DNA of 64,000 nucleotides from Trypanosoma brucei (lineage: Eukaryota), in assembly GCA_000002445.1 (NCBI GenBank), contig AL929603.2, positions 256,001-320,000 on the forward strand. The letters run 5' to 3'. Shown here piece by piece: positions 23,202-51,300 of this stretch. Position 1 is the stretch's first letter; every line of letters starts with the position of its first letter. Position numbers and translations under genes: made by a program. Under the pieces are notes generated by a model, which did no database searches, was not told where the DNA came from, and worked only from the letters and a program-made list of their open reading frames with translations.

Positions 23202-26200
23202 CCAACCATCCCAAAGGCTTAAAGAACTTCAATGGGGAAAATAGGAAAAGATATACAGTAAGAAGTGAGCTTTGAATACATAAATAACAGGCCAAAATAC
23301 AGATGCAGCCCCATACCGTATAAATGGGGGGAAACAAAAGAACAACTGGTATACCCCAGCAAATACAAGACATTTGTGGTGGGAAAAGAACGCTGAAATA
23401 GGTACAACCAGGTCCGGTTGCCATTTCTACGGAAAGTCTGTATTCAGCGCATCCGCGGGGTGATCTAACAAACAATCTCACACGTACACGCACTGATGGA
23501 TCGGTAGATAGTGTAGACTTCCACTCCAAAATAGTAAAATGAATTTAATTTTCATCGTCATAAAGAAACACTAAACATATCACTCAAAATAACAACAATT
23601 TTCATGCTTCAGCGCGGCTCGTGGTTACAAGACGCCGTGCACCGGTCAGATCTAGGTGGCATCATTTCATTACGCAATTACCATTCATACAAACTACGAG
23701 GCAAAAGAAGCGAAAGAAAACAAACTTTCCACTAGCAGCTATCACGGTAGTAACGTAACGCATTGATCTCCCTCTTGCTTTATTTAAAAAAAAAACAGAA
23801 ACGCTGAGGACTTCTACGGGAATCTAACGTCCGGTAAAACGTCTCTACGACACTGTCATTTCTGTCACTCCAATGATCACTAGCACACGCCTATGCTTTT
23901 TCGCGGCGAGTTCAACAATTTATCCGCACTTGATACGACAAAAAAACAGATGGGGGTAGATGCACCGGGAGATTTACGCTCCTCAATGACACTTACGAAA
24001 GCAGAAACAAGCAAAAATGTGATATTTACACTAGAAAAAAGTTCATTCGGGATGGTGGTCTGCTTTTCGAAGTAGCTATAACCGGCAAAAGCAGCAATAA
24101 AGAGCTGAAAAGACTGATGGGGCCCGTCAACCGGTGACATCAGTAAGGAATATTATTACCCCCCGCCTCTTCTCTCCCCCTCGAGCGGTCCAAACTTTCG
24201 CATTAACACGAGGTAACACCATATGTAACGACTCGAATAACATTTGCTCCTTTCTCGCACTGACCAGCAGATCATACAAAAAACGTTAAAACGGCGAACC
24301 ACGTACATATATCGCACCAACTTCTCAACACAGCAGTTGCAATCCCACTTCACATACAGAAACAAAGAGAAAGTGTACAACCTACGCGACGTCAGAAGAT
24401 CCGATAGCGACCCTCGGCATGGTCCACACACTACCTGCGGTCACACATGCCAATAAAAAAACCCGCTGAGTATTTATTATCACTAAAGGGGGAATGCAGA
24501 TCACAGCGTAAAAATACGTTAGTAGTGGGGAAAGCCCGGGAACATATACAGTTACCGATGTTCAGCAAAGGGCGCGGGAAGCTGTCCTCCTTTGATTCGT
24601 CTAGTTTCGAGCCATTTAACGAGAAAAGCAATCTCCAGAGGCAGCACCAAACACTCTCAAGGGCACCGAAACCAGGAACACATCTCCCAGAAACAATACA
24701 CAAACCTTTAAGACAGACCCCCTAGAGAAACGCCCACAGTGCAACACCACACCATGGAACCGGGTAGAACAACCTTAAGTCCGCTTCCGCACCCCCATTC
24801 AGCTGTCACGTGCTGGTGGTCGATCCAAAGCTCTCCTTGGATCATCCTGCTGGCTCACCCACCGTAGTCGTACAGGTTCCTGTTCTCTTCCGATGGAGGT
24901 GCCACAAAAATATGGCTTCCACGGACACAAAAGACGCTATTTCAGTCTACACAGCTAAGAAATCAGGTATTATCTAAACTGCAGTCAACTAGATCACACC
25001 TCGGCGGAGCAGGAGGACCAACGAACCCGTCTTCTTGGTTGGGGTATTTCTCAACGATGGCGGATGCCAGCCTCTCCACGACTCCTCACCCTTTCTTTCT
25101 CTTTCCTAAAAGTGCTGGAGGTAACTTCAGTTCCATCTCGCCACTGAGCACCTTCCTCCTCGAGCTTACCGATCCGTGTTTCTCCCTCAGAATCTAGAAC
25201 CCGTCGGGCTCGAGTGGTACCAAACCGTACCTACCACCCAACATTTTAATTCGCGGCGGGCACTCCTCTCATCTCACTCCCCATCCCCCCATGGCCGCAG
25301 GCATCGGACATGCACCTCGTGGAGGAAATCTCACCAACGCAAGCCACATCGCAGCCCCTGCACTGCCGGACTCCGACGCCGGCTTCCGCTCCTTGACCCC
25401 AACATCGAGCAGCCGCCACGGAACGCGACTGGCCCCAAAGTACACTGGCATCGTCTGCAGCGCGAATAGGTTCGAGCTCCCGCTAAGTTTATCAAACTCG
25501 ACACACTCCACCGAGCCATGTACGGTAGCCGGCTTCAACTGCACCCCAGTTCCTGCAACCCTCCCCCCTCCATCCATGAGCCTTCTCACCCATAGCACCT
25601 CGTTCCTGTTCGGTTGAACTACCCTCCGTGGACAAGGCACCCCATGCCACCGCCAATAATTCTTTCAACGGCACTATGGGATCAAGCGCAGGCTTAAAGC
25701 TGCTGCACATCGCCATCGTCCTTGCCAAGAGCGCCCTCTTACACGCCAGGTTGTTAAACTTCCCACCGACGACCCATTTAACTTCATTGTCATTCCACCG
25801 CCCTGCTTTCGGGCTAGTTGTTGCCCGTAATCACACAATGCAAACTACGATCGCGCTATAGTCACCCTTTAGCGCCACCACTACCGCAGCATTGCTGTCG
25901 CCAAGACACCGGTGAACCTCTATTTTCGTTGCAATCGCTGTGATTCATCTTGGTTCTGCCCCTTCCACACGAAGTCGGGTACACGCATATCCTTTGTAAC
26001 CCTTCTCCGCCCCCAAAAATTTCGCCGAGAACCGTGCTTATGTTCCTCGTAGTGTTGGTGTTCCCTTTTTATGACGAATAGGAGGACACCGGCACCACGG
26101 TAAATATATTTGTTTTTTCTTCGCACCCGATGCTACTCGGCTTCCGCTGAATTTGGTACACATGCCGGCTGAAGTTGACGCCTGTATTTATTTGTCGTTG

Positions 26201-29200
26201 GGTTCAAATTCTAATTTTGCGCAGGTCTCCATTTTTAGCACTTAACCCCCTCAAGCCCTCGCCTCACTGCTCCTGTAACACCGACGCCATTTACACCGTG
26301 GCGATCACAGCCTACTCTGTTTTTTTTTTTTACACGCCACGACAGCTTGCTACCATGTGTTTCCCATCCCACCGCCCCCGTTACCCATCTCACTGGTGCC
26401 AGAGACTCACGTTCTCAATACAACGCCCTATCATTACGTTCTTCATTTCCCGTATTTGAAAGATTTGCGACGGTTGGTGCGGGCCATCTTCCACTCAAAG
26501 GAAACTCACATAGTTGTCGTTTCTGTCTCTCTGTGACGGCAATTGTTCTTTTCTATGCATCTACTCCACACTGTTATCACATCGGTCCACTTAATTCCAC
26601 CATACCTGAGTGGTTGGCGCCTCCCGTCCCATGTCATACTGTAATGCGTTTTTGGCCGCAAGGGGCGTTAGGTTCTATAGATTCGATCTCTGTCAGCAGT
26701 CTGTCCTTCATCCCTCTCATTTTGTATCACGCACGCACTCGGTACGTGCACCCCTTCAGATTTGCTCGCCTGTTCGTTGGAACGATGAGACCTATTGAAC
26801 AATTTTGTGCATATGCACTGCTGGGGGGGGGGGGGGTTCCTCGATGCTCCTACTCACCTGAGAAGCGGCTTGTCGATCTTATTTTTGTCGTGCAGTCTCG
26901 TAAATAGCGTTTCCTTACCGCATACTTCATTGTCGCCCACCTCGGATAAAACCAGATTTATTCTTAGCACATTGCGGAGTACCACCGCCTCTCCCACAGG
27001 AGCGGAGCTTATTCTGCTTTGAACGTCCTCACGACACGTGGAGAGGTGCAACCCCACAAACGCTTTGTTTTAACTTCAACCTCCCCCCCGTTTCGTATCC
27101 CTGCTCTTGCACTTTGCCACCCAACGATGACACCTGAAGTGTTTCGTTGCGGCCATGCGAAACCAAGGCGGAAGAAATCTCTTCTATAGGTGTCGCATGC
27201 TTCCATCTACATGTAAAAGGGAAAACGACAGAAAGGAGGTCTCCAGCTCGTGTTGGTTTCATTGACTGTGCTATAGTAAGCACGTCCCCGATTTCTCCAC
27301 TTCCGTGAAATATACAGTAAATATGAGTAATACACTCAGGTTACATTGGTGGTGGATCGTTCCCCTTGTCGGCCATCTTGGAAGTGATTTCGCTTAACTC
27401 TGAGCACGGGAGTCGGGGGCGCACTGCACCGATATCAACATATTCCTACCAGCGAGTCCAGGCATCACTTTCCCCATTTGACAACACAGAATACCGAGTC
27501 CTACGCATGCAAGGCTTATATTTAAAGCAACGAAACATGCTGTGAAGTTGGTAAGTGCCATTTCCCCACTCTATGATTCATTTTCTCAGACATTTTGAAC
27601 CTAGTATTCATTGCAACACTCTTTTATTCGTAACGGGGCATCAACATATCGGTTTCCCCACATTCCCCGGTCATGCTCTCTCTGTCAAATGCGCGGGATC
27701 TGTGAAAGAGCGTGCGCCTCCCCATGTGAGTCATAACCACAACTCTGATGGTGATCAGTTGTACGCTTTTCCACTCTTTTCATCTTATGCATCATCCCTC
27801 AGCGTACTCACTTGAGAAGCTCGTGTGCGCGCTCTTTTGGTCAGACGTAGTGCGTCTGCCTTGCACGGGGTGGGGTCATCGCAGTTCTCCTCGCCCTTTT
27901 ACCAGACGACAAGAGTGACAGATCTCATTAGGATAGGGTGACCTTGACAACGTAGCCATCCCACGGTCACTACGGGTGTTCCACAATTGGCTTTTAACAT
28001 TTATAGGTAACCAACTCCGCGCCTACAAAACATTCGCACAACAGTGGTATGCCGCTCATCCTTCGCCACACCTTTGTTTCACGGCCCAGTCAAACAGTCG
28101 TTTCGATGATACCCCCCTTAACTTGTACGTTCGCAACCGCGCTTATACCAGCAGAGGGTAGAGAACTATGAGAGGTTTATTCCTGAGAACACTTCGTTTG
28201 TACAACCCTGAGGTGGAACGAGTGGGCCGCATCGCTCCTCTGGCCTTGTCGCTACGAAGGAACCGTTTTCAGCCCCAGAAATCACGGCCGCGGTGTTTCA
28301 CATACTCCATTCGCACGCTCGAAGGTGTCATTCATCGGTTAGGCCGTTAGCCCCTATTGTTTTGAACTTGTGCTTTCACCTTGATGGGCTTCACTGATCG
28401 CAGTTGTCAGGCCGCCCGTAAAATGCCCCCCCAAAAGGTGCAAACCCTGCTTTTTCGCAGCTGACTGCTGAGGGTTCGAAGGATAACCATCGTAACCACA
28501 GCGTTCCTTCCCTTCTGCAGATTCTTCTCTCTTCCTTCTCATCATTTTGTTGTTTAAAGAAAGTTGTGTTGAGGTTGGAGCCTGTATCTTCAGACGTTAG
28601 TTACAAAGGGGACTCACTACAGTTTTTGGCTGTGTGCGTTATCAACTGAAGTGCTCTTGCTGGGGGAGTGATTCATCTAAGTGGGCCTCTCTCGATTATC
28701 ATACAAGAACGAATGTCTGTTGGAAGATGAGCGAATTTTTCACACTAGTTTCGCGAATCTCTTGTATAATCTTGTTGGGATCCACTCTGTGAAGGGTTTC
28801 GGAATAGACAAATAAGAGGCCGAAGACGTTCCGAAGCTTCTGGGACATTCAGCGGCTCTTCGGTCGTCATATGTTCTCGCAGTTTTCTCTCTCTATCACC
28901 TTTGAGATGGTGAGTGTGGTACGGGGAGGAGGCGGGACAGGATTTAACCCTTCAGATATATTCAGAGTTATGGAGTAATTGCGCATCTTCTCCCCCGGTG
29001 CGATGTGATTCTCACACCAAGTTTGTCGTCAAGAAGGGTTGGGAATTAGGAACTACTGGGGGTTCTCAAGAGTCTTAGCACGAATTTATGCTGTTCGTTT
29101 TCAACAGGAACTAACCCTTTTCCATTATCTTATTCCAGTAGTGTTTTTACCCTTCGGTATACCCGCAGTACGTGTTTGTAGCGTTTTGATGGCATCGTGG

Positions 29201-32200
29201 CGCAGGCCATCACTAACTGGTGCGTGGAATGGTGTTGCCTCGTTGTTCTGTTTCCAAATCCGGCGGTCGCTGCCTGGAAGCACTGTACTAAACTCGGCCG
29301 CTGACGTTTCAGGCCGTTTTTATTGGATATACTCATTTTGTAACGTTTCTCTTGACACCGTTGGAGTCGAGCACCGCCATATAAAGACGTTCGCCTCTGT
29401 GCTGCAGGGCGTTTCCGCTCAATATTACTTGCGGAAGCATCCGTCTCATTCTCCATTTTGGCCAACCCCATTGTCACGGAACAAGGGTCCCCGATATTGT
29501 TCTACCCACCGGGCTGCGGCGGGCGGTCCATCATGAATGACTGTTGCAGCTGTGCGTCGGTACGGCTGTGGGTATTTCTCTAGTCCTTAGTATTTCCAAG
29601 TTTCTCCTGTGTGATGAGTTTCGGCTTCCCCAAGTTATCGTGTTTCCACGGATATGATTCTCTTAAGGATATTTGCAGTGAAATTGGTGGCTCTTCGGAG
29701 TTGCGGCACACACCAAAACAGTAAATAACGTTGTGTGGCGTTCATTGTCCTTAGTGGCCCGTGGCACTCGGTTTGCAACAGGGTAGTTCCATTAGCAAGT
29801 TGTGTCGCGTACAACGCCAGCTTTTTTTTTTTTTTGATGAATATTGCGGTGGGGGTTCCCCACCACGTTTTTTGTCGTTGCAGATACCAAGCGCGTGCCA
29901 ATAAAGTGCAGAATCTCTGTCGTCAACTGAGGGGACGGGCTTAGCGCACACCAAGGGGTAGGTGTCGTCCGGTCGTCCCGCGATAACTTTTTTGGGGCGC
30001 AGGGAAGCGGCCGGATGTGAATGTGGGACGGGGAAACTGCACTGTGTGCCGTGACGTGCGGATAAGTTTTTGCGGCGAAACGCCGCAACGTAAGTACTAT
30101 CGCCGTGTGTTCAAGAAAGAGGATGGACATTCCTCGTCTCTTTGAGTCACAGCCGGCAGCCGGTTGCTCTTGTGATGGGTGGATGGAGCCAAACTGCCCC
30201 CTGCGGGGGCGGAGGGCAACCTTTTTCCCCAACTGGTGAATCAACGGTTGACGTACAGTTCGGTGGAGATAACCCAACAGCATTCCGGTTTCTGGCACGC
30301 GGGAAGGGCTTAGGGTTCGTATCAACATCACTTTGCGGGGTAGTTAAGGGCATGTGATGCTGGCGATGTCGGGTCCATATGTGACTGGGGCTCTTCCAAG
30401 GGTGCTGCCTGTCCAGTTGCGGGGTCGCTCTTCACCCAGTGGTGGGTTAATGGAGCAGCCTCCTCTGCCTGACCTAATCTTAAGGGTGTATGCTACATGC
30501 GCTCGGTGTGTCCCCCCTGAACGATGTCGTAGGGTCTGCTGCCGTCTTGGAGCGGCCGTCGTCATGGAGGCAGGTGGGCGTGCTGAGAGTTTGGACAACT
30601 GGTATTCTTCGAGTGTAGCGACTCGATCGTTGTCGGGAGTGACTCCTTAACTACTGGTTTGTGGTTACAGTGCTGAAGTTTTCGTTGACAGGAAGGTTTT
30701 GGTTTTTGCCACCACAAGGTGTTTCCGTATTTCATTATCCAGAGTATATCAAAGGAAGTTTTTGAGGGATCATGGTCGCCGCGTTGGATTTTATTGCTTG
30801 AAAACGTTGCTGTCCTTTGGTGGTTTCCTCTTTCTTATACGGTCCTTCGTTGTGTGGAAGGCCACCCGTGCTAGGAGTGGATCATTGGCTTCTTTTCTAT
30901 GATTTGCGACACGTAGGTACGTGTATGCGCTTAGGGTTGTTTGTCTGTTTGTTGACTCCCTGGTTATTTGGACTGAATCACTGTTGAATCTTATCAACTC
31001 CTTTCTCGGTGCCATGCGGGTGAGGGGCATAGAAAGCAGTGCAGAGGCACTGCTTCTTGTACCTGCTTTTTTTCCAATTCTAGATTTTATTTTTTTAAAC
31101 ATCACCTTTGATAATTAGTGAGCACCTTTATACCCTGTTAAGTTGTTGCCGTGCTTATTGTCATTGGCGGCTTGTTTGTGTGTGGGGTGACAGCTACCAC
31201 ATTTTTTTTCTTTAGCGGTAGCTCCTTCTGTTTTTTTCACGTGATGATGTGCCTACGGTTTCATTTGTTCTTTCTATTCATAGAGTCTGCGCAAAGATGC
31301 CCTCTGTTGGTTGCATTGTTGACATCTACTATTGTGATTCTTAGTCGGAAATCGACGCCAAACACGTCGTCTTGATTACAGTTCTACCGCTGTTGTGATA
31401 CCTGTGGTTTGAGCAATTAACAAACGTGATTTAGGCATGCGGCCCCCTTTGGGACAAAAATTTCTCCAGCGTTGCCCAACTTTTGGTTGTTGTAGGTTTT
31501 TTGTTTCGCATCTGATGTCGTACTAAGCCGTACTAGTGATAAAATGTGCTGCGGACTACACCCGATTGCATTTTGTCTAGTGTTTATACCTCCTAAGGAG
31601 TGCGGATACTGTGAGTGATATTTCTTATCGTTTGAAACACGGCGAGTAAAGGATGAACACGGGGCCGTACTTTTTTCTCTTTTTGCCCGAGTTGATGGGT
31701 AGCAGAAGGTTGGATGAGGGGTGCCCATGAATTCCCGGCACGTGTGATTCTCTCCCCTTTGTTAATCCCACTACGCTGATACATCCGTACCTGACTGCAT
31801 ACTCACACCAACTCAAGTATGCAGGGCGGCGTGGCTCAGTGGGCATGAGGAGGCGATGAATTTGTTTTGTGCTGTTGGGCCTCCTTTGGAAGGAGCGTGC
31901 TCTGAGTTTGGCTTAGGTTGCTGCGTATAAAGTTGCTACTGGTTCTGATATTTTTCACATTTAGCGCTGCATTAGGGTTAGGGGGACAGTGATGGGTGGG
32001 CGCTGTCAGTTACACTGCGACTTTGAGGGAACGGTGCCAGCGGTTTTCCGTTTGTGAGCTTGACGCCTCCCCCCTTTTGTTCTGAGAGCATCAGGTGCTC
32101 TGCCCAATCAAACTGGTGCTACCTTCGTTATCACAAAACACCCTGTGTCTTAATATCTTTAGTAGCGACCAAGCGTCGCTGCTTGCTCTGTAGTTATTCC

Positions 32201-32581
32201 GTTTGTGAGTCATACCAAGCGCCAAACCTTTGGGTTCAACTGTTTGCCAGTATTTGTGTTGAGGTCATTGAAGTTGTGTGGGCGTTTTGTAAGTTGTTGT
32301 AGCGGGGGTTTTAACAGCGATGGTAAGACTGTGATGAAACGCGCCATCCCGTTGTTTAGATTGTTGCCCTCTTTGATATCACCCAGTGCTGCCTCGTGTT
32401 CGCAACGATTCTGTGTTAACAAAACACGCACCATTTTACGTTTTTAGTTGTCTCAGAGGTCGCGGGGAATGCCAATAAATCATAGTACTTGTACGATGCT
32501 TGGCTAATTGATACGGTCTTGCACTTTTCAAATGCTTCTCTTTCTTTTTTTACTTTCGTTGACGAAGTTGCCTATTTTTAA
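23202..32581. promoter_or_regulatory. Divergent strand-switch region, the presumed bidirectional Pol II transcription start region between the minus-strand and plus-strand gene clusters. It is about 9.4 kb with no ORF longer than 186 aa.
   Basis: Gene orientation flips here. The plus strand is A/C-rich from 23.5 to 26.2 kb and T/G-rich from 27 to 32.5 kb, consistent with transcription away from a centre near 26.3-26.9 kb. Homopolymers T12 (26320-26331), G14 (26823-26836) and T14 (29822-29835) are present. Confidence 0.7.
26823..26836 (+). promoter_or_regulatory. G14 homopolymer at the compositional-skew switch point of the strand-switch region.
   Basis: The sequence shows ctgGGGGGGGGGGGGGGttcc. 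G-tracts are a known feature of kinetoplastid divergent transcription start regions. Confidence 0.4.
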
Positions 32582-33706
32582 ATGAGTGGCGAAAACATTA
32601 AAAATTTGCTGGCGCCGCAGCCAACGGTGGATCAAGGACCGTACAGTGGGAAGTATGAGAAGCGTATGGTGGATCTTCCAAAACCAACGTACTCAACGTT
32701 TTACAACAAGAACAAAGAGTTCGACAGTACTCACCCCAGGTATTTCAAGCAACGTGACGCGGTTATCGGCCCAATAGTGAATGATACAGTGGATCCCAAG
32801 AACTTTCTCCGCACAGGACAGGGGATCAAACACATTGTTCCACCTGTGCCCCATAAAAAGCAGCACCGAAAGGATTTTTTAGACTGCGGAGACATACGGA
32901 AACGCACTCAGGGAGCGATGGAGCCGGCAGATCAACAACAGAAGGAAAGTTCGGGGATGGGTGGTATGGGATCTCTTGCAAATACAAATGGGGTGGGTGG
33001 GCAAGCGGGTGATGGCATTCGGGAGCACGACATGAGCTCCAACGACCCTGAGCGAAAGGGCGAGCAAGCTAACGGTGGCGACACCGGCTTGCGTGGCACC
33101 GGAAACGTTGAATCTGCTGTGGGATCATGTGACAACAAAAATAATTTCCAGGGGGCCGCAACAGGAGACAATGGGCGCTGCCACCTGAATTCACTTGACC
33201 GCTCACGTTGTAAAAAGGACTTTGTCACGTCAAACATTATTGATGTAGACAACATGGTCCCAAAACGGCGGAAAGATCAACCTGAGGATCCAACCCGCAG
33301 AAAGACATTTGGTCGGGTACCTGGGTATATAGGACGAGTGAAGGAGGTAATTGAGAAGGAGCGAATGCAACTTAAAGCAATTGGTGAGGCGAGAACGAAC
33401 AATCGCCTAGAGAGAGTGGGTAAATTTGTATACCGATTGGATGAGCAAGAAAGGCTAAACATGATCTCCAAATTACGAGCGAAGCTGACAGAAAAAGGTG
33501 CTGAGTTGAATAGAATGCCATTTGCTAAAGATACATATATTCAGATGAAGCGAAAGTCTGATTTGGAGAAGCGTATCAAGGAGATCGAGAGCTCTCTCGA
33601 GAAGCTGGAAAAAGACGCTGTGTTTATTTATAGCGATGATCCAAGGGTAGTTCACTGGACCAAGGACGCTGCTTTTGAGGAGGCCCGTCTCTTTGCCTCC
33701 GACTAG
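32582..33706 (+). CDS. Enkurin-domain protein, 374 aa (flagellar/ciliary).
   Basis: The C-terminus GRVPGYIGRV ... NRMPFAKDTYIQMKRKSDLEKRIKEIESSLEKLEKDAVFI matches the enkurin domain (mouse enkurin GKVPKYL ... LPVRSDTLRVRSRKVELDRRLADIEEAIKIFSRPKVFV). First gene of the plus-strand cluster. Confidence 0.65.
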   Translation: MSGENIKNLLAPQPTVDQGPYSGKYEKRMVDLPKPTYSTFYNKNKEFDSTHPRYFKQRDAVIGPIVNDTVDPKNFLRTGQGIKHIVPPVPHKKQHRKDFLDCGDIRKRTQGAMEPADQQQKESSGMGGMGSLANTNGVGGQAGDGIREHDMSSNDPERKGEQANGGDTGLRGTGNVESAVGSCDNKNNFQGAATGDNGRCHLNSLDRSRCKKDFVTSNIIDVDNMVPKRRKDQPEDPTRRKTFGRVPGYIGRVKEVIEKERMQLKAIGEARTNNRLERVGKFVYRLDEQERLNMISKLRAKLTEKGAELNRMPFAKDTYIQMKRKSDLEKRIKEIESSLEKLEKDAVFIYSDDPRVVHWTKDAAFEEARLFASD

Positions 33707-43280: not shown

Positions 43281-43763
43281 CCGGAACAAACATCGTCACC
43301 CCCTCCCTTTTATTCATCACACACATAGTTTCTTCACAGTTATTTTGTTTTCTCGTACCATTGCTCGCTCGATTGTACTCTTTTCTCTGCCTAATTTGTT
43401 TCTTTCCATGCCGAGAGTGGAGTCAGGCACATATAGGTGTTTGTACACTTTCTCGCGCCGCAACTTACTTGCGTAGTAACTTCTGAGACTAAGCAATGCC
43501 TCTTTTTGAAAAATTGTGAAGGAAAATCCCTCTTTTTTTCTTACCTTGCTGCTCTTTTTAGGTTAACTCGGTGGTTTTCCCGCTAGACCTCTTCTCACCA
43601 TACCCTTTCGCATGTCGTACCTTCTGTATGGACGGCGTCCGTGTTTGTGTGGGTAGAGCGGGTGTGGAAGTTGTGATTGCGCCTTTTGATGGTTGCTTTT
43701 CCCACATGATGTACCGGTTCTACAACGAAGACATATCATTTTGGATATGCGGAACTCAGATCT

Positions 43764-43916
43764 CTGTGTTGGCACAATTGTCTTTTGCTATGAGAGTGAA
43801 GGGCGCGTTGAGTGGGAAGCCATGCCGAATTTAGTGCGAGGCCATCCTAATTAAGGTACCCGAGAGCGCGGTGAGTTGTGTTACTTTCCGTATTGGGGTA
43901 CAGTTGTGTATACTGT
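43764..43916 (+). repeat. Direct repeat copy A, 153 bp (ctgtgttggcacaattgtctttTgctatgagagtgaagggcgcgttgagtgggaagccatgccgaatttagtgcgagGccatcctaattaaggtacccgagagcgcggtgagttgtgttactttccgtattggGgtacagttgtgtatactgt).
   Basis: About 98 percent identical to copy B at 49310..49461. Both copies are intergenic. Confidence 0.9.
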
Positions 43917-44096
43917 TTGATTCTATTCGCTTTGGTATCTAGCACAGCCGGTGGCTAGGACGAAAGTTGCTCGAGGAAAAGTGCTTGCTTTTACGCTGTC
44001 TTTCGTATTTGCTGCCCTTTTCTCAAAGCCAACTCTTTCTCCTTTATCCTTCGTTCTCCGCTTCACGTGACGATAGCATATAACTGAAGGAAGCTT

Positions 44097-47000
44097 ATGA
44101 ATGTCACTAACCCCTCCACTGTCAGGTACGCCGATGCATTCATGTCGTACTTGCGATTTCTCGAGAAGGATGTGTGGTGGACAATAGTGTATGTCATATT
44201 CTTGGCGTGGATGTATTTGTTTCACGCCCCATTTCGAGTCCACAATGTTTGGCGAACCGATTGGTATGCGCAGGTGACGAAGGTGTTGCAAGTATGGATT
44301 GGCGTTGTTGTTTTCCTTTTTCATACCGGCTCGGGGTTTTTTCAACCCCAAAGGTCTCTGCAGGCAGAAATTTGCAATGCCGACGATGATACTGTTGCCA
44401 CGATTTTTTTCCCAATCTTCAGCACAACGACACTTATAATCTTGTACATTCACAGCAAGAAGCGTGTCTGGGGCCTGGGTGTGACGTATGGTTCTAGTAC
44501 AATCGTGGTTGTGTTGAATTCCTTACTTCTTTCGCTATTTTCTACCGTACATTTTGCGTACGGTATGCGAATTCAAGACTTTGAGCACTCCTCGTTGTTG
44601 AAGGGTGCCGTGGGTGTGCTCTTTCCATCACCAAAGCAGACACTTTTCCCGACGCTGCTACTGTTGAGTGTCATGAATGTACTTTTTATAACTTTTGACT
44701 ATCAGTACAAAAAGCGTTGCGGGTTTGATCCGCTGCGCGGACTATTATGGAGTGAGGTTTGCCGTTCGCGAAAGGCACACGAAGTCGTTCCCACTACTAT
44801 CCGAGATGGCTGCGATTGGCGAAAACTTCAACCGAAGCCGAAACGAATATCGAAGGTTGAGCAGCCCTGGATTGTCTCACCAGAGGGGGGGAAACGGCTG
44901 AGCTTTGCGCTCTCTTCTCTGGAGGTCAAGCAGCTATCCGTGCAGTACCCAGTGAACCGACCGGGCATGGTTCCTTGGTTTTCAACTTTCATTGCGGGCA
45001 CAGCCCTTCAGTCTGTCCTTGGAAATTCGCTCAATTTTTTGACGTTTGATCAACGTGCCGTGGAGTCACAGATGAATCCCAAGGTGTTCAAGTTGAGTTT
45101 TACCAAACACAGATCGAAAATTAGCAAGTCATACAGCCTTTCCCGTGTTTCTGAATGCTCACCATCAACCAGTGTGGATGCTGTGTGCTGTGATCCGTAC
45201 GGTGATGATGATTATGAAAATGTTTGGTTCGACTTCGTCGCGGACGTCGGAGATGGGTTTAACTCGACGTATGAGATGGCTCGTTTGATGGCACAACCTT
45301 TCCTCCGTCTAGCATCAAGTGATTCGGTGCAAACGCGAAGCGGACTCGTGAATTCAGTTTCTGTGCGCGACGGTGGAGGGAGAAGGGGTTTGATGACGCC
45401 ACCTCTGACGGCCGGTGATGGAGCCTTCCTTGCTGTCGAAGGTAATGGACAGCAAAACAGATGCGGGCGGACGCTGTCGATGTGTGACTACGAACCCCAA
45501 GAGAACTTTTCCCTTCCCCGTGCATCGTTTGTGGTGGTTGGTGGAGATTTGGCGTACCCGAATCCCACCAACGAAACGTACCGCACACGCCTGCTCGAAC
45601 CGTACAACAACGCGCTTCGGTGCTGCGCACCTCTATGCAAGCTTGTGAAGAAATGGTACAATCGCCTTGTTGTGCCAGAGGAGGACAACAAAGATGTTGC
45701 CCGTATTCACATGCTGTCGGCGTCCAAAGTTTCGGAAATGACTCAGCGTAGAGATATAGCTGACATGTGTCTTGGTGAAGACGAGGTGGTACACAGCACT
45801 CCCCTACTGTTCGCCATCCCCGGTAACCACGACTGGTTAGATGGTCTCGTGACATTTAAGAAGTTTATCATTGACGAGAGTTGGATGGGTGGCTGGTTTA
45901 TGCCCCAGAAGAGCTCCTTCTTTGTTATAAATCTCCCATATAACTGGTTTTTGCTGTGTGTCGATACAGGAAGTGTGACTGACATCGACCCAGGACAACG
46001 CAACTACTTCCTGAATTATATTGAGGAACACCTCGACGTTTCGTCCTGTGTGATTTTAATTTCCCATGAGCCTGGGTGGATTTACGAGGCGATGAACACC
46101 AATTTGACGTCGACGATGCAACCAGAGTTACACCGAGTAGTGGACGCCCTCGGTACACGCCTGCGCATGCGACTTTGTGGCGATATCCACCACTACTCTA
46201 GACACACACCTACAGACGCGCTTTCAGAGGCACCTGTTCTTGTTGTCAGCGGCGGTGGTGGTGCCTTTCTACACGGCGCCCGGAACAATACCGTTATTTA
46301 TCAAGGAACAGAGTATAAGCGGGAGGCAGCGTTTCCTAGAGATAATCATGTCACATCGTTTCTGACGAGGTTGGTCGGCTTCCGCCTGATTAACTGGAAA
46401 TTTGACATAATCGCTGGTTTTATGTGCTTCGGGCTCATAACCTCCTCGCTACCCTTGAACATGGAGGACAAAAAACTAGAGGAGATCGTGGACATCCACG
46501 TCCTTTTCTGTAGTACCGTAACCCGCACAGCCGAACTCTGTCTCTATACATTTGACAAAGGCATTATATCTTTGTTCGTGGCGGTGTGTTTCTTTATTGG
46601 TTTCTTCTCGGTTGGGTCAGGGAGAAAGAGTGTATGCTTTCGGATCGCATACTCTTTATGCTGGACGGCACTTGTTGTGTTCGCTTCATCTGGAATGTTA
46701 GCCGTTGTTCAAACAACGATGGCCTACATGATGAATCATGGCTTGATTCTATCAACGAAAGAACAATGGAGCAGTATGTTGGAGTCTCAGGTTCGTACCG
46801 CTGCGGATGACACATCCAATCACCTGATTGAGTGGTTGGGTGACGAGCATGCTCTCTCAAGGGGCATCGAAAGCCTGCGGTCGGCTGCACACGGTAGTGT
46901 CCTTGTTGGAGCCGCCTGTACGTTGTTGAGGAGTATGGATATGATTGAAAACTTGGCGTATCTTTCGTACCACGTCGGTACAAATGTCACGGGTACCCTC

Positions 47001-47453
47001 TCACACACGACTAACCGTGTTCAGGTTGTTCTGTACTATCTTCACATTCTTCTGATCTACTGGCTCTTGGCAACGCCGCTGCTTTCGTTTATTATCGGTG
47101 TATTTCTATTTGTATCTGTTCACTACTTTGATTTAACATATGACGCGTCATATTCCTCATTTCAGATTGAGGATTACAAACACTTTTTGCGTTTCTGCTT
47201 GGATGGCAGAACGAGGTGTTTACATGCTTACGTCGTTGCAGAAAAGTTTGTGCCGAAAGTTTGGATATGCGATGGCAGACACGTTACCGAGTGCAGGGAC
47301 GAGAGAACCAAGCATCTTCCACCACATCTAAAAAAACATCCAAGTCGCTGGGTACCACATGGGGTTTCGGGCACTGACTACACACCCACAGTACTAGAAC
47401 ATTTTGTTGTAAGACCACATCGGGTTACTCAGCCAGATCCTCTCCGTGAGTGA
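44097..47453 (+). CDS. Polytopic membrane calcineurin-like metallophosphoesterase, 1118 aa. It has an N-terminal multi-TM block, a central metallophosphoesterase domain and a C-terminal multi-TM block.
   Basis: Metallophosphoesterase signature order: DFVADVGDG, VVVGGDLAYPNP (GDxxY), AIPGNHDW (GNHD), ILISHEPG, LCGDIHHYSRH (GDxHxY). Many hydrophobic helices occur at both ends (e.g. WWTIVYVIFLAWMYLF, VVLYYLHILLIYWLLATPLLSFIIGVFLFV). Confidence 0.8.
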   Translation: MNVTNPSTVRYADAFMSYLRFLEKDVWWTIVYVIFLAWMYLFHAPFRVHNVWRTDWYAQVTKVLQVWIGVVVFLFHTGSGFFQPQRSLQAEICNADDDTVATIFFPIFSTTTLIILYIHSKKRVWGLGVTYGSSTIVVVLNSLLLSLFSTVHFAYGMRIQDFEHSSLLKGAVGVLFPSPKQTLFPTLLLLSVMNVLFITFDYQYKKRCGFDPLRGLLWSEVCRSRKAHEVVPTTIRDGCDWRKLQPKPKRISKVEQPWIVSPEGGKRLSFALSSLEVKQLSVQYPVNRPGMVPWFSTFIAGTALQSVLGNSLNFLTFDQRAVESQMNPKVFKLSFTKHRSKISKSYSLSRVSECSPSTSVDAVCCDPYGDDDYENVWFDFVADVGDGFNSTYEMARLMAQPFLRLASSDSVQTRSGLVNSVSVRDGGGRRGLMTPPLTAGDGAFLAVEGNGQQNRCGRTLSMCDYEPQENFSLPRASFVVVGGDLAYPNPTNETYRTRLLEPYNNALRCCAPLCKLVKKWYNRLVVPEEDNKDVARIHMLSASKVSEMTQRRDIADMCLGEDEVVHSTPLLFAIPGNHDWLDGLVTFKKFIIDESWMGGWFMPQKSSFFVINLPYNWFLLCVDTGSVTDIDPGQRNYFLNYIEEHLDVSSCVILISHEPGWIYEAMNTNLTSTMQPELHRVVDALGTRLRMRLCGDIHHYSRHTPTDALSEAPVLVVSGGGGAFLHGARNNTVIYQGTEYKREAAFPRDNHVTSFLTRLVGFRLINWKFDIIAGFMCFGLITSSLPLNMEDKKLEEIVDIHVLFCSTVTRTAELCLYTFDKGIISLFVAVCFFIGFFSVGSGRKSVCFRIAYSLCWTALVVFASSGMLAVVQTTMAYMMNHGLILSTKEQWSSMLESQVRTAADDTSNHLIEWLGDEHALSRGIESLRSAAHGSVLVGAACTLLRSMDMIENLAYLSYHVGTNVTGTLSHTTNRVQVVLYYLHILLIYWLLATPLLSFIIGVFLFVSVHYFDLTYDASYSSFQIEDYKHFLRFCLDGRTRCLHAYVVAEKFVPKVWICDGRHVTECRDERTKHLPPHLKKHPSRWVPHGVSGTDYTPTVLEHFVVRPHRVTQPDPLRE

Positions 47454-47933
47454 TTAGGTAAAACAAAGGTCCCCATCCTGACACTTTTTTTTTGTTATAA
47501 TTTGTCGTATACGTCGCGCACGAATTGTGCGGTGCATCGCACATACTAAGCGACTGGTTGGGCTGTCTGTCCAGTGTGCGGTACCTGTCAGGATGTGAAC
47601 GCAGTATATGGCATTTCTCTAAGGGTCTGGCGTTTTGAAGTTGTTTTTAGGCATCAATGCTGCTGTCGTCTTATCCTTTGTTACGCGTCACTGTGTTCCT
47701 GCTCAACGGTCACGCACCGGAGTGGGAGTTTCGGTAGTTGGCGCTTCATCGGATGCAATTTTCATTTCGTTTGCTTGGTTTATCTCATTATATTTTATTT
47801 CTTACCGTATTCACCTGTGCTGCTGTTATCTCATTACTGGCCCCCACCTTTCTTGTCTGCTTTTAGTACATTGTGGTACCTCGATACCGGGGAGGTTCCG
47901 AAGCACGCATACGGATCAAAGGGTGCCATTTTC

Positions 47934-48851
47934 ATGTCTGTTCAGTGCCAGGTTGCTCATCCGTACTTGCTTCTCAAGTCACTTTCTCTGCTCACCATCT
48001 CCAAAGATGCGTGGGCAGAGGTGGAGTTTACTGAATCTTCCGTGACGTTGGACGTTGAGGGCGCAGGTCAGTCGGCCACAGCTACGGCTGTGCTTCCCAC
48101 ATCAATCTTCTCACAATACACCACGACTGGCGTTCGTTTTGCTGTGCACCTGGGCATGTTTCGGAACGCCTTGTTGTTGGGTGGTCCGTCGCAACTGAAC
48201 TCCATGTCCACCTCACGTGTGGTGTTGTCGTACCCAACCAAAGAAGCGAGGTTGCTCGTCGAACTGTCGGACGGAAAAATCACGTTGCGTTCAAAACTTA
48301 TCACTCAACGACCGAAGGAATATCCGCTTGACCTTCAGTTTTCACATGCGCGTATTTTGAATCAGGTGACACTGCCAGGTGACGCGGCGAGAGCTGCCAT
48401 AGAGGATTTAGTGACAGCACAATGTTCTCATGCGGTTGTAACGCTGGACCCTCGGGAGGGTGTGCTGTTCCGAGGGGAAGGTGGGCCGTATGGTAGCGCA
48501 CTTATCAAAATCCCACTTAATTCAGATGTTATTTCTTCCATTTTTGACGGTGATGAGCGGGTGGAAACTCACGTACTTCAGTCACACCTGGTCCTAGTTT
48601 GCGGAGTGCGCTCGGGAGGTAAACAACGGCGTAACACTCTTGTACCAGCAAATGATTTCCTTATGGGACCCAATAGTAATGGTGGTGGTGGTTACGGGCA
48701 GCAACAAGCGGCGGTTGGTGGGTTTGAGAGGTTGATGCTTCAGATAAATGAAGCACGGCAGCTTAGTGTGGTGCACATGCTGCGAGAGCGGGATATCCCT
48801 GTGACTGTTACGTTGGTTGTTTCCCCCATATACAATCTGCACGATCAGTAA
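47934..48851 (+). CDS. PCNA-like checkpoint clamp subunit, Rad1-like (9-1-1 complex), about 305 aa. The ORF track begins at 47574, but the first 120 aa look like translated 5-prime UTR.
   Basis: LLLKSLSLL ... VEFTESSVTLDVEGAGQSATATAVLPTSIFSQY resembles the human RAD1 N-terminus (LSTILKAIHF ... VTVENAKCVQANAFIQAGIFQEF). The size fits a PCNA-fold clamp subunit. I cannot discriminate Rad1 from Hus1 or Rad9. Confidence 0.45.
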   Translation: MSVQCQVAHPYLLLKSLSLLTISKDAWAEVEFTESSVTLDVEGAGQSATATAVLPTSIFSQYTTTGVRFAVHLGMFRNALLLGGPSQLNSMSTSRVVLSYPTKEARLLVELSDGKITLRSKLITQRPKEYPLDLQFSHARILNQVTLPGDAARAAIEDLVTAQCSHAVVTLDPREGVLFRGEGGPYGSALIKIPLNSDVISSIFDGDERVETHVLQSHLVLVCGVRSGGKQRRNTLVPANDFLMGPNSNGGGGYGQQQAAVGGFERLMLQINEARQLSVVHMLRERDIPVTVTLVVSPIYNLHDQ

Positions 48852-49309
48852 TATGAAAACCTCTTGAGGTGACCGGTTCTTTACGTCATTGTTATACTTC
48901 CCTCCCCTAGACTGTCTCAGTACCTCTTGGCGGGGAGGATTTTTGGTTGCACATCGACAATTCGTGTGCGACACACAGGAGTGGGGAAGTCAGCAAACTT
49001 CCTTTTAAAAAGGGGGAAAGGAGAATGTCAAGCTGACTCTCAGTCACTCCTGTCCGTTGCGGCACTGAAGGTGTCACGCACCGTGCGCCACGGGCTGCAA
49101 CGGTCTCTGTGCGCCCAGCACGAATGTCGAGTACATCATTGTGCTGATGGCTGATCTTTCATTGCAGGTCGCACAGACACCGAACGACATCCTTAAAAAA
49201 AAAAAGAAGAGGTCCGCTGTTGTCCTTGGATGGCACGTTGGTAATGGAGGCCATGCCAGCGCGTCTGCTGCATCGCTGTCGTACTGTCCGAATGGTGGCA
49301 TTACTCTTT

Positions 49310-49461
49310 CTGTGTTGGCACAATTGTCTTTAGCTATGAGAGTGAAGGGCGCGTTGAGTGGGAAGCCATGCCGAATTTAGTGCGAGACCATCCTAATTAA
49401 GGTACCCGAGAGCGCGGTGAGTTGTGTTACTTTCCGTATTGGAGTACAGTTGTGTATACTG
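49310..49461 (+). repeat. Direct repeat copy B, 152 bp.
   Basis: See copy A. There are three mismatches (T/A, G/A, G/A) and one T-run length difference. Confidence 0.9.
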
Positions 49462-49842
49462 TGTGCTGTCGATCTTGTTGGGACCGTCTTTTATACTTTG
49501 ATTGGCTTGGTGCTCCTCCGTCCAAGTGGAAGTGTGTCATTGGAAGGCGTTGTTCACAAATATTGACGAGGATCAATTGTCCGTTTTATTGTTTCCGAAG
49601 CTGAAGGGCCGCAGTTTGTCCAGTAGTGTTGGGATTCACGCGGTCTTCGCGATGGGCTTTTGACCTCTGTTTTACCTGTGCTGATTTTTTGGTTAAGCGC
49701 ATTTAAATATCATATGAGATCTTCGCTTTAAATCATTTTTTTCTTGGATGTTGGATACTGCTGCAAACTCTCTTCCCCTTCTTTGCTCTGTTGTTTTCCC
49801 CCTTTGGAATACTTGTGTGAATCTTTTTGTAAGAGACCGGTT

Positions 49843-51300
49843 ATGAGTCAACTCAGCGAGTTGCTAAACACCTCACAACTGACGAAGTACTATGCACTAA
49901 TTCAATTCCTTTCGTCACACACCAACACTGAGTACACGCTCGCTCAACTGGACTACTTGCTTCCGCGGGGAGCGTCACTTCAGCGTTTTCCAGCATCATG
50001 GATAGAGTTTATGGAGGAAGGGTTGTGCAACAACCAAAATGTTGAATTGTATCGTCGTCCCGTCGCTGGTGGAGAAGCTGCGGGTGAAAACATTTCTTCC
50101 CTTGTGCAAGAGGAGCGCGAGGAAATTGTCCTCATTTGTCGGAGGCCAGTCATAAATGATCTGAAGGACCTCGCCAGGTTGTTGCAGTCGCCAGCGACGG
50201 TTCCTGACGTGGAGGGTTGTGTAGCACTGCATACAGACCAAATTACACTCAACGAAAACCTCTTAAGAGCGTCGCAAACACAAGGCCTGTTGTACTATTT
50301 TCCCGATAACTATACCAAATCACGTGAACATCGCTCTGCTAAGTCCCGTCGTTCTTCCAGTCAGAGCGAGATTGTAAGCAACCTTATGCGCAATGAAGAC
50401 ATAGAGGGACTTCTCAATGAAGAAAGTAAAGATGGCAAACTGGATCTGCCTGCCGGCGTTACTGCTCAATTTATGCTCTACAACCGACGGGGTGTGCCTG
50501 TTCGAGGCCGAAATAGTTTTCCTATGCGATACAATGTGGGTGACAGGGCCATGGTTATTGTTGAGAGGAGCGTCCCTCCTGATGCAGATCATGTACCAGC
50601 CAAACCTCCTTTGGTGACCACGACTCTGGGAAGACCAGTTGGTATGAGTAGTGTTGGTGGTAGTGACGGCAGTACACCAGTCGAAATCCGGGTGAAGGTA
50701 TCTGCCAATTCCGTCGGGAGCCAACGTACCTGTATAAGTATTAAGGCTCAGGTTAAGGGTAGAGTGGTTTTGTCCCTTTTTGTTGACAGTAGGGAGACAA
50801 TAATTCCGCTGGAGGTGTTGGATGAGAGTGTGGGGATGCCAGGAGTGATAGTTGGACGCGAGCAGCAACCACTACTTCCGGTACCGGATGATATTCGCAT
50901 TAACGACCCTGCCATTTGGGGGAGTGGCAACGGCGATGAACAGGCGGGAAGGGGTGGTGTCAGCGGTATTGACCGTGACAGTGGTAGTTGCGGTAACTCC
51001 GCTTTGTCTTGGTGGCTTAATCCATCGCCTGCCATTCTTGAAGTGCGGGATCTCACATTACCGGATAGTGAGACTTTTGCGGCTGCGTCGCGCGCCGTGT
51101 GGAATGTTCACCGCGCCGATGAGAGTGCAATGAAGGCGGTGCGGAAGGCATTGAAGGACCAGCGCAACTCAGAGACGACGCGGAAGAAGCGAAACAAGCG
51201 CAGTCGACCACGTGATCTACGCAACAGTCACATGATTCATTATGGATTCGATGCCTCAATACCTTTTGGCACCCAGCGCTCTTTTCCGAAAGATGCTTGA
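49843..51300 (+). CDS. Hypothetical protein, about 486 aa from Met at 49843 (MSQLSELLNT). The ORF track starts at 49744 with Cys-rich UTR-like residues.
   Basis: Long ORF on the coding strand with globular-looking composition; no motif recognised. Confidence 0.55.
   Translation: MSQLSELLNTSQLTKYYALIQFLSSHTNTEYTLAQLDYLLPRGASLQRFPASWIEFMEEGLCNNQNVELYRRPVAGGEAAGENISSLVQEEREEIVLICRRPVINDLKDLARLLQSPATVPDVEGCVALHTDQITLNENLLRASQTQGLLYYFPDNYTKSREHRSAKSRRSSSQSEIVSNLMRNEDIEGLLNEESKDGKLDLPAGVTAQFMLYNRRGVPVRGRNSFPMRYNVGDRAMVIVERSVPPDADHVPAKPPLVTTTLGRPVGMSSVGGSDGSTPVEIRVKVSANSVGSQRTCISIKAQVKGRVVLSLFVDSRETIIPLEVLDESVGMPGVIVGREQQPLLPVPDDIRINDPAIWGSGNGDEQAGRGGVSGIDRDSGSCGNSALSWWLNPSPAILEVRDLTLPDSETFAAASRAVWNVHRADESAMKAVRKALKDQRNSETTRKKRNKRSRPRDLRNSHMIHYGFDASIPFGTQRSFPKDA

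What the first reader, a model, noticed from the sequence alone, without database searches (positions are those of the whole stretch)
43764..49461. Near-identical 152-bp direct repeats bracket a two-gene unit (membrane metallophosphoesterase plus Rad1-like clamp)
Copy A (43764..43916) and copy B (49310..49461) differ at only 3 or 4 positions, which is far above the background similarity of the intergenic sequence, and they lie in the same orientation. Between them are exactly two genes, the 1118-aa polytopic metallophosphoesterase and the PCNA-like Rad1-type ORF. The flanks outside the repeats are unrelated. Such repeats could mark a segmental insertion or duplication boundary, substrates for recombinational excision or amplification of the 5.5 kb unit, or a shared UTR regulatory module giving both downstream mRNAs the same 5-prime UTR element. 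Copy A lies 180 nt upstream of the metallophosphoesterase ATG, and copy B lies about 380 nt upstream of the next gene start at 49843. The high identity suggests recent homogenisation (gene conversion) or a recent event.
Basis: seen in the sequence. Interest (0 to 1): 0.55.

Follow-up and report, generated by a model that had tools for sequence, protein, structure and literature searches.

The report
Two copies of a snoRNA gene
The two near-identical 157-bp repeats each hold a copy of a small guide RNA gene (very probably the known Trypanosoma brucei snoRNA TB1Cs1H1) that directs one pseudouridine in the small-subunit ribosomal RNA, so this is an ordinary, already catalogued kind of gene and not a mobile cassette boundary.

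Summary
Window 43763-43919 and 49309-49465 are direct repeats, 157 nt long with 4 mismatches. They are the only such repeat in the 64 kb, and they bracket exactly two genes, the metallophosphoesterase-like gene and Rad1. The window is Trypanosoma brucei-group chromosome 1.

The middle ~72 nt of each copy is a single-hairpin, AGA-box 'H/ACA-like' snoRNA of the trypanosomatid type. Its two pocket strands (GUUGAGU and AAUUAAG) pair with SSU rRNA 1594-1600 and 1585-1591, leaving U1592 and G1593 unpaired. The pocket lies 14 nt upstream of the AGA box. Published maps assign SSU Psi1592 to the chromosome-1 snoRNA TB1Cs1H1, so this is almost certainly that gene in two copies.

The same snoRNA sits at the same two places (upstream of the phosphoesterase gene, and upstream of the TFIIH-subunit gene) in T. 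theileri, T. conorhini and T. rangeli. T. cruzi also has two copies bracketing the unit. T. vivax has it at the second place only.

Between species only the ~70-nt core aligns. Within each species the copies are 92-99.5% identical across 157-594 nt including flanks, which indicates concerted evolution by gene conversion. In one T. cruzi strain, unequal crossover between these repeats has tandemly duplicated the enclosed genes.

Verdict: a known snoRNA, with low novelty.

The parts
43763..43919 (+). Repeat copy A (homogenised tract, 157 nt)
   Evidence: 97.5% identical to copy B with no gaps; flanks unrelated
49309..49465 (+). Repeat copy B (homogenised tract, 157 nt)
43797..43868 (+). Predicted H/ACA-like (AGA-box) snoRNA, copy A. 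The ends are approximate: the 3' end is set 3 nt after the AGA box and the 5' end is not determined.
   Evidence: Covariance model R1 hit at 43795-43873, 82.9 bits; nhmmer; single hairpin of -24.5 kcal/mol, z -2.57; conserved core in 6 species
49343..49414 (+). Predicted H/ACA-like snoRNA, copy B. It carries G->A at 49387, which breaks one upper-stem C-G pair.
   Evidence: R1 hit at 49341-49419, 81.7 bits; MFE -17.4 kcal/mol; T. equiperdum copy B has G at this site
43807..43813 (+). 5' pocket (guide) strand GUUGAGU of copy A (copy B: 49353-49359). Complementary to SSU rRNA 1594-1600, ACUCAAC.
   Evidence: Invariant in all 11 sequences; rRNA sequence read from PMC10662448 supplementary files 6 and 13
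43814..43848 (+). Upper stem and apical loop of copy A (copy B: 49360-49394)
   Evidence: 87.8% of cells paired; C-G to U-A and U-G to C-G changes between T. brucei and T. vivax
43849..43855 (+). 3' pocket (guide) strand AAUUAAG of copy A (copy B: 49395-49401). Pairs with SSU rRNA 1585-1591, UUUAAUU (6 Watson-Crick pairs plus 1 G-U).
   Evidence: AAUU and the following A are invariant; rRNA sequence
43863..43865 (+). AGA box of copy A (copy B: 49409-49411), 14 nt downstream of the last upper-stem pair
   Evidence: Invariant A-G-A column triplet in all 11 sequences
44097..47453 (+). Enclosed gene 1: 1118-aa membrane metallophosphoesterase-like protein
47934..48851 (+). Enclosed gene 2: Rad1 (9-1-1 clamp subunit), 305 aa from the ATG
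49843..51300 (+). Gene downstream of copy B: 485-aa protein that sources name 'TFIIH basal transcription factor subunit'. It serves as the anchor of the B site in other species.

Best explanation
Each repeat contains one copy of a trypanosomatid single-hairpin H/ACA-like (AGA-box) snoRNA gene, very probably the published TB1Cs1H1. The gene lies in the sense orientation in an intergenic spacer of an RNA polymerase II polycistron.

Inferred from what is known about trypanosome snoRNAs: the RNA is cut out of the polycistronic precursor and assembles with the CBF5/NHP2/NOP10/GAR1 proteins.

Shown by sequence: its internal loop pairs with SSU rRNA on both sides of U1592. The strand GUUGAGU pairs with 1594-1600 and the strand AAUUAAG pairs with 1585-1591, which leaves U1592 and G1593 unpaired at the top of the pocket, 14 nt from the AGA box. 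CBF5 would therefore convert U1592 to pseudouridine. This residue lies four nucleotides 5' of the hypermodified m1acp3-pseudouridine 1596.

The two copies are old. Both positions are occupied in several Trypanosoma species. They are kept nearly identical, flanks included, by gene conversion or unequal exchange between them. That is why a 157-nt tract, and not just the ~72-nt RNA, is 97% identical.
For: (1) Conserved core. blastn, nhmmer and covariance model R1 find the central ~79 nt in T. vivax, T. theileri, T. cruzi, T. conorhini and T. rangeli at 65-93 bits, and nowhere else in about 240 kb.
(2) Anatomy. In every species it is a single hairpin with a 7-nt single-stranded tail carrying an invariant AGA. 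89.7% of pair cells form standard pairs, against 27-70% for slid controls.
(3) Guide strands. The pocket strands are the most conserved part, with GUUGAGUGGGA invariant. I derived the target 5'-..UUAAUU..-U-N-ACUCAAC-3' from them before consulting the literature.
(4) Published target. PMC10662448 supplementary files 3-6, 12 and 13 give the SSU sequence UUUAAUU-Psi1592-G-AC(m1acp3Psi)CAACAC and assign Psi1592 to TB1Cs1H1. The site is modified at a fraction of about 1.0.
(5) Published snoRNA. TB1Cs1H1 is named for chromosome 1, is credited to Michaeli et al. 2012, and is listed as SSU-targeting and 4.9-fold higher in bloodstream forms (PMC4855143, Table S1). The window is T. brucei chromosome 1.
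(6) Concerted evolution. Within species, A versus B identity is 97.5% over 157 nt (T. brucei), 91.8% over 462 nt (T. theileri), 99% over at least 380 nt (T. conorhini), 99.5% over 411 nt (T. rangeli) and 98.5% over 594 nt (T. cruzi). Between species only the core aligns. The T. equiperdum B copy is a mosaic of the window's A and B alleles.
Against: The sequence or coordinates of TB1Cs1H1 could not be found in any paper or supplement held in the library. The identification therefore rests on the chromosome name plus the target site.

No Rfam family matches.

Covariation is not statistically distinguishable from shuffles. Two pairs have double changes, against 1.8 expected, because the RNA is too conserved and there are only 9 distinct sequences.

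The lower stem is only 3-4 bp.

Thermodynamic z-scores of the isolated hairpins are modest, from -0.4 to -2.6.

Expression, RNA ends and dependence of Psi1592 on this locus were not tested here. PMC10662448 file 3 lists Psi1592 as 'Not reduced' in the comparison tabulated there.

T. vivax lacks the A copy.
Confidence: 0.88

Rival explanations
1. The repeats are non-functional scars of a recent segmental insertion or duplication that brought the phosphoesterase-Rad1 pair into this place, making the pair a cassette.
For: The repeats are direct and near-identical and bracket exactly two genes. Genes upstream of the unit differ between T. brucei/T. vivax and T. theileri/T. cruzi.
Against: The order snoRNA-phosphoesterase-Rad1-(X genes)-snoRNA-TFIIH subunit is shared by T. 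brucei, T. theileri, T. conorhini and T. rangeli, and T. cruzi shares the bracketing arrangement, so it predates their divergence. The conserved part is a hairpin with rRNA-complementary strands, not a junction sequence.
Confidence: 0.03
2. The element is a shared regulatory module of mRNA untranslated regions, acting in cis on the two downstream or upstream mRNAs.
For: Both copies lie in intergenic spacers upstream of a coding gene. The full 157-nt + strand folds better than shuffles, z -2.6, while the - strand does not. The ~85 nt of homogenised flank outside the snoRNA has no assigned role.
Against: Across species only the snoRNA core is conserved and the flanks are not. A long pyrimidine-rich stretch lies between copy A and the ATG, which suggests that the splice-acceptor region of the downstream mRNA is downstream of the element. 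That last point is inference; no RNA data were examined.
Confidence: 0.04
3. The element is one member of a genome-wide dispersed repeat family, such as a retroposon-derived short repeat, and the bracketing is coincidental.
For: Several draft assemblies break at or near these repeats, as happens with repeated DNA. The rest of the T. brucei genome could not be searched with these tools.
Against: There are only two copies in the 64 kb. There are none outside the two syntenic sites in about 175 kb of other trypanosomatid loci. The snoRNA's published name carries a single chromosome-1 cluster label.
Confidence: 0.03
4. The element is the snoRNA as described, but the within-species identity comes from repeated loss and re-duplication in each lineage and not from gene conversion between two persisting copies.
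For: T. vivax has lost the A copy. T. conorhini and T. rangeli have an extra tandem copy at the B site. So copy number does change at this locus.
Against: It would require re-insertion at the same two intergenic positions in at least five lineages. The T. equiperdum B copy looks like a patchwork of A and B alleles, which is typical of short conversion tracts. Tract lengths differ by species.
Confidence: 0.1

Closest known systems
TB1Cs1H1, a T. brucei H/ACA-like snoRNA (Michaeli et al. 2012, PMC3273796; listed in PMC4855143 Table S1 and PMC10662448 supplementary data)
   Same: It is on chromosome 1 by name, belongs to the H/ACA class, and targets SSU rRNA. The assigned site, Psi1592 in UUUAAUU-Psi-GACUCAAC, is exactly the site that the pocket of the window element specifies.
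   Different: Nothing was shown to differ. However, the published sequence, coordinates and copy number were not available to me, so identity is inferred. The two-copy bracketing arrangement and its conservation across species are not mentioned in the texts I could read.
Yeast snR36 and human SNORA36 (ACA36). From my own knowledge, not tested here, these guide the equivalent 18S pseudouridine (yeast Psi1187, human Psi1244), four nucleotides upstream of m1acp3Psi.
   Same: Same universally conserved rRNA context (UUUAAUU-U-GACUCAAC) and same H/ACA guide logic.
   Different: The yeast and human RNAs have two hairpins with H and ACA boxes. The trypanosome RNA is one hairpin of about 70 nt with an AGA box. 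No Rfam family, including these, matched the window.
Solitary snoRNA TB1Cs2H1 in the alpha/beta-tubulin array, and tandemly repeated snoRNA clusters of T. brucei (PMC3273796)
   Same: These are snoRNA genes embedded in intergenic spacers of polycistrons and repeated along with neighbouring DNA. Homogenisation of repeated units is well known for T. brucei tandem arrays (PMC1855330, listed; I saw only its abstract).
   Different: Here the two copies are not part of a tandem array in T. brucei. They are separated by 5.4 kb of single-copy coding sequence, and only 157 nt is homogenised.

Membership tests
Trypanosomatid H/ACA-like (AGA-box) pseudouridylation guide snoRNA | Single hairpin of roughly 65-75 nt, unlike the two-hairpin RNAs of yeast and mammals | tested here: met
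   All seven orthologous 72-nt segments fold as one hairpin with an internal loop and a free 3' tail. The consensus fold agrees.
Trypanosomatid H/ACA-like (AGA-box) pseudouridylation guide snoRNA | AGA (or ACA) box in the single-stranded 3' tail, 3 nt from the 3' end | tested here: inconclusive
   An AGA triplet is invariant in 11 of 11 sequences, directly after the lower stem. The position of the real 3' end needs RNA data.
Trypanosomatid H/ACA-like (AGA-box) pseudouridylation guide snoRNA | Internal-loop pocket whose two strands pair with rRNA on either side of an unpaired U-N | tested here: met
   There are 7 + 7 base pairs to SSU 1585-1591 and 1594-1600, with U1592-G1593 left unpaired. The rRNA sequence was read from PMC10662448 supplementary files and the guide strands.
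Trypanosomatid H/ACA-like (AGA-box) pseudouridylation guide snoRNA | 14-16 nt between the base of the upper stem (target U position) and the box | tested here: met
   14 nt (window 43849-43862) lie between the last upper-stem pair and AGA at 43863-43865. The spacing is the same in all species, with no gaps in these alignment columns.
Trypanosomatid H/ACA-like (AGA-box) pseudouridylation guide snoRNA | Helices supported by compensatory changes | tested here: inconclusive
   Two of 14 pairs have double changes, which is not above the shuffles. 89.7% of cells are paired, against 27-70% when the partners are slid.
Trypanosomatid H/ACA-like (AGA-box) pseudouridylation guide snoRNA | Stable small RNA bound by CBF5/NHP2, and the target U actually pseudouridylated | not testable with these tools
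   Literature only. TB1Cs1H1 has read counts in procyclic and bloodstream small-RNA libraries, and SSU Psi1592 was detected by several methods.
TB1Cs1H1 specifically | Sequence identity with, or the same genome coordinates as, the published RNA | not testable with these tools
   No sequence or coordinates are in the held texts or supplements. The chromosome and the target site match.
Dispersed repeat / retroposon-derived element | Many copies scattered in unrelated intergenic regions | tested here: not met
   Only two copies are in the 64-kb window, and there are none outside the syntenic sites in the other loci. A whole-genome count was not possible.

The most novel reading that the evidence does not exclude
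Two dispersed copies of one snoRNA gene, separated by 5-9 kb of single-copy protein-coding genes, have been held in concert by gene conversion since before the radiation of the genus Trypanosoma. The same repeats act as a recurrent recombination hotspot that changes the copy number of the enclosed phosphoesterase-Rad1 unit. That unit is duplicated in T. cruzi strain contig L005 and could vary in T. brucei field strains.
Probability: 0.3. Interest if true: 0.35.

Novelty: already known. Interest (0 to 1): 0.18.

Why it matters
This explains a conspicuous repeat as an ordinary gene, so nobody needs to pursue it as a mobile cassette or a new regulatory element.

The remaining value is modest.
- It gives window coordinates and a guide-target model for both copies of a snoRNA that directs a fully modified pseudouridine next to the m1acp3-pseudouridine of the small ribosomal subunit.
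- It shows that knocking out this snoRNA requires removing two loci that flank Rad1 and a large membrane protein gene.
- It is a clean example of concerted evolution between non-adjacent snoRNA copies.
- It shows that such repeats break draft assemblies and can mediate local gene duplication.

Tried and rejected
- Rfam. The whole window at gathering thresholds and the 500 nt around copy A at E<=10 gave no relevant family. There are no tRNA or tmRNA genes.
- Search for the published sequence of TB1Cs1H1. A full-text search for the name and for a 15-mer of the element found no paper. The Michaeli 2012 supplements are not held. The supplements of PMC4855143, PMC10662448 and PMC9283944 contain the name and target but no sequence.
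- T. b. brucei TREU927 and T. congolense loci could not be fetched, so the nearest outgroup is missing.
- T. vivax A site. The 14-nt similarity seen is not supported by nhmmer, the covariance model or flank comparison, so I treat it as chance.
- L. donovani phosphoesterase locus. No snoRNA hit. The Leishmania orthologue, if any, lies elsewhere.
- Metagenome scans. The strict pattern gave 0 hits. The loose pattern gave 8 contigs, but they score only 10-16 bits with model R1 against 65-93 bits for the trypanosome copies, so I treat them as chance.
- C/D-box snoRNA. I looked by eye for C (RUGAUGA) and D (CUGA) boxes in the repeat and found none.
- A second RNA in the flanks of the 157-nt unit. 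Rejected because the flanks are not conserved between species.
Full report
**Observation**

The two copies are real. Pairwise alignment and the repeat finder give window 43763-43919 and 49309-49465: 157 nt, 4 mismatches, no gaps, same orientation. This is the only repeat of 40 nt or more in the 64 kb. Sequence immediately outside the tract does not align.

The ORF map and called genes in an identical T. equiperdum contig show exactly two genes between the copies. One is an 1118-aa protein whose homologues are named calcineurin-like or metallo-dependent phosphoesterase. The other is a Rad1 clamp subunit (PF02144). The next gene, with its ATG at 49843, is named by sources as a TFIIH basal transcription factor subunit.

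**Organism and context**

The 1118-aa protein is 100% identical to T. brucei gambiense DAL972 CBH08850, and its cluster mate is the TREU927 chromosome-1 protein CAJ16040. Large ORFs are all on the - strand up to 23.2 kb and all on the + strand from 32.6 kb, and the GC skew flips near 28 kb. The repeats therefore lie inside a + strand polycistron, in the sense orientation.

**What the element is**

No Rfam family and no tRNA match. The + strand of the unit folds better than shuffles, z -2.6, and the - strand does not.

The decisive lead came from orthologous loci fetched through the flanking proteins. Only the central ~70 nt of the repeat is conserved in other trypanosomes.

That core has the anatomy of a trypanosomatid H/ACA-like snoRNA:
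- a short lower stem, GGG(C/U) with (G/A)CCC;
- an internal loop whose 5' strand GUUGAGU and 3' strand AAUU(A/G/U)A(G/A) are the most conserved parts;
- an upper stem of about 10 pairs with an apical loop;
- 14 nt from the upper stem to an invariant AGA;
- a short single-stranded tail.

From the pocket I predicted a target of the form ..UUAAUU..-U-N-ACUCAAC.

The supplementary data of Rajan et al. 2023 (PMC10662448) give the T. brucei SSU sequence UUUAAUU-Psi1592-G-A-C-(m1acp3Psi1596)-C-A-A-C-A-C-Gm-G and assign Psi1592 to snoRNA TB1Cs1H1. The pocket pairs with 1585-1591 (6 Watson-Crick pairs plus 1 G-U) and with 1594-1600 (7 Watson-Crick pairs), leaving U1592 and G1593 unpaired. This is what the H/ACA guide rule requires.

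TB1Cs1H1 is a chromosome-1 H/ACA snoRNA first reported by Michaeli et al. 2012. It is listed as SSU-targeting and 4.9-fold more abundant in bloodstream forms in Chikne et al. 2016, Table S1. I could not find its sequence or coordinates in the held library. The equation 'window element = TB1Cs1H1' is therefore an inference from chromosome and target, though a strong one.

**Strength of the structural evidence**

With a hand-drawn structure, 89.7% of pair cells are standard pairs, against 27-70% when partners are slid. Only 2 of 14 pairs show double changes, which is no more than the shuffles give. Thermodynamic z-scores of the isolated hairpins range from -0.4 to -2.6. The case rests on conservation of the guide strands, the box, the spacing and the match to a mapped pseudouridine, not on covariation.

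**Distribution and synteny**

A covariance model (R1) and nhmmer find copies at 65-93 bits at two kinds of place only.

The 'A' site is just upstream of the phosphoesterase gene. The 'B' site is just upstream of the TFIIH-subunit gene.

| Species | Copies found |
|---|---|
| T. brucei | A and B |
| T. theileri | A and B |
| T. conorhini | A, B1 and B2 |
| T. rangeli | A, B1 and B2 |
| T. cruzi | two copies bracketing the unit |
| T. vivax | B only (no relic at A) |
| L. donovani | none within 10 kb of its phosphoesterase gene |

The gene order from tblastn is [snoRNA]-phosphoesterase-Rad1-(0 to 3 copies of a ~360-aa gene 'X')-[snoRNA]-TFIIH subunit. The bracketing arrangement is therefore ancestral to the genus and is not a recent insertion.

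**Why 157 nt and not 72 nt are identical**

Within each species, the A and B copies are near-identical over tracts that include flanks:

| Species | Identity | Tract length |
|---|---|---|
| T. brucei | 97.5% | 157 nt |
| T. theileri | 91.8% | 462 nt |
| T. conorhini | 99% | at least 380 nt |
| T. rangeli | 99.5% | 411 nt |
| T. cruzi | 98.5% | 594 nt |

Between species the flanks are unalignable. Old positions combined with young-looking copies indicate concerted evolution.

The T. equiperdum B copy carries the window's A alleles at the two 5' variable sites and the B alleles at the two 3' sites. This fits short conversion tracts or very recent mutation. Only one of the four A/B differences lies in the RNA (43841 G / 49387 A). 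It breaks a C-G pair in copy B and lowers the predicted stability from -24.5 to -17.4 kcal/mol.

**Recombination between the repeats**

In T. cruzi contig L005, a 7447-bp unit (snoRNA, phosphoesterase-like region, Rad1, X) is tandemly duplicated at 99.6% identity. Comparison with a second strain (L006) shows that the internal junction has the B-type left flank and the A-type right flank. This is what unequal crossover between the B and A repeats would produce.

Nothing indicates amplification in the T. brucei window.

**Comparison with known systems and verdict**

This is a member of the well-described class of trypanosomatid AGA-box H/ACA-like snoRNAs and almost certainly the catalogued TB1Cs1H1. 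From my own knowledge, it is the functional counterpart of yeast snR36 and human SNORA36. Embedding of snoRNA genes in polycistron spacers, repetition of such genes, and homogenisation of repeats are all known in T. brucei (PMC3273796; PMC1855330, abstract seen).

The points I could not find in the literature available to me are minor: the conserved two-site bracketing of phosphoesterase-Rad1, the genus-wide concerted evolution of non-adjacent copies, and the T. cruzi duplication.

Novelty: already known. Interest: low.

Noticed in passing
window 23200-32600: Divergent strand-switch region. All ORFs of 250 aa or more are on the - strand up to 23201 (including a 4600-aa ORF at 8384-22186) and on the + strand from 32582 onward. 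The GC skew changes sign near 28 kb.
   Followed up: no
L001 (T. equiperdum) start; L007 1-379 (T. conorhini); L009 1-410 (T. rangeli); L011 start (T. grayi): Draft assemblies break at or next to the snoRNA repeats. The T. conorhini and T. rangeli contigs end inside the A repeat. The T. equiperdum contig ends 104 nt upstream of the phosphoesterase ATG. The T. grayi contig ends 31 nt upstream of the TFIIH-subunit gene.
   Followed up: partly
L005 6263-20906 (T. cruzi, GCA_003177095.1): A 7447-bp tandem duplication at 99.6% identity containing the snoRNA, a phosphoesterase-like region, Rad1 and gene X. Its junction is consistent with unequal crossover between the snoRNA repeats. The locus ends before the array does.
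   Followed up: partly
L005 7006-9582 and 14453-17028; L006 7178-9582: In T. cruzi the phosphoesterase-like region matches the T. brucei protein only in pieces at 25-38% identity and was not called as a gene. In other trypanosomes it is 52-58% identical over the full length. It may be a decayed or fast-evolving copy.
   Followed up: no
L004 7377-8099, 15846-21305; L007 5710-7194; L009 5476-6623; L005 11129-12319: A ~360-aa gene family ('X', no Pfam hit on record) sits between Rad1 and snoRNA B in T. theileri (3 tandem copies plus one upstream of snoRNA A), T. conorhini, T. rangeli and T. cruzi. It is absent from that place in T. brucei and T. vivax.
   Followed up: no
L008 10001-20054 (L. donovani): Two phosphoesterase paralogues lie in tandem, with no Rad1 gene beside them and no copy of the snoRNA within 10 kb.
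   Followed up: no
window 49387 (copy B) versus 43841 (copy A): The only A/B difference inside the snoRNA. The G->A change in copy B breaks an upper-stem C-G pair (predicted MFE -17.4 versus -24.5 kcal/mol). The T. equiperdum copy B has G, so the change is strain-specific.
   Followed up: partly
L002 5526-10001 (T. vivax): The 4.5-kb stretch upstream of the T. vivax phosphoesterase gene holds uncalled ORFs of 756 and 333 aa and no snoRNA copy.
   Followed up: no
L013 63-141 (metagenome contig Ga0247623_10013259): A weak hit (12 bits, E 0.11) that has both guide strings (GUUGAGUGGGA and CCCAAUUGA) and an AGA. It could be a distant eukaryotic counterpart or chance, since the search pattern itself forced these strings.
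   Followed up: no
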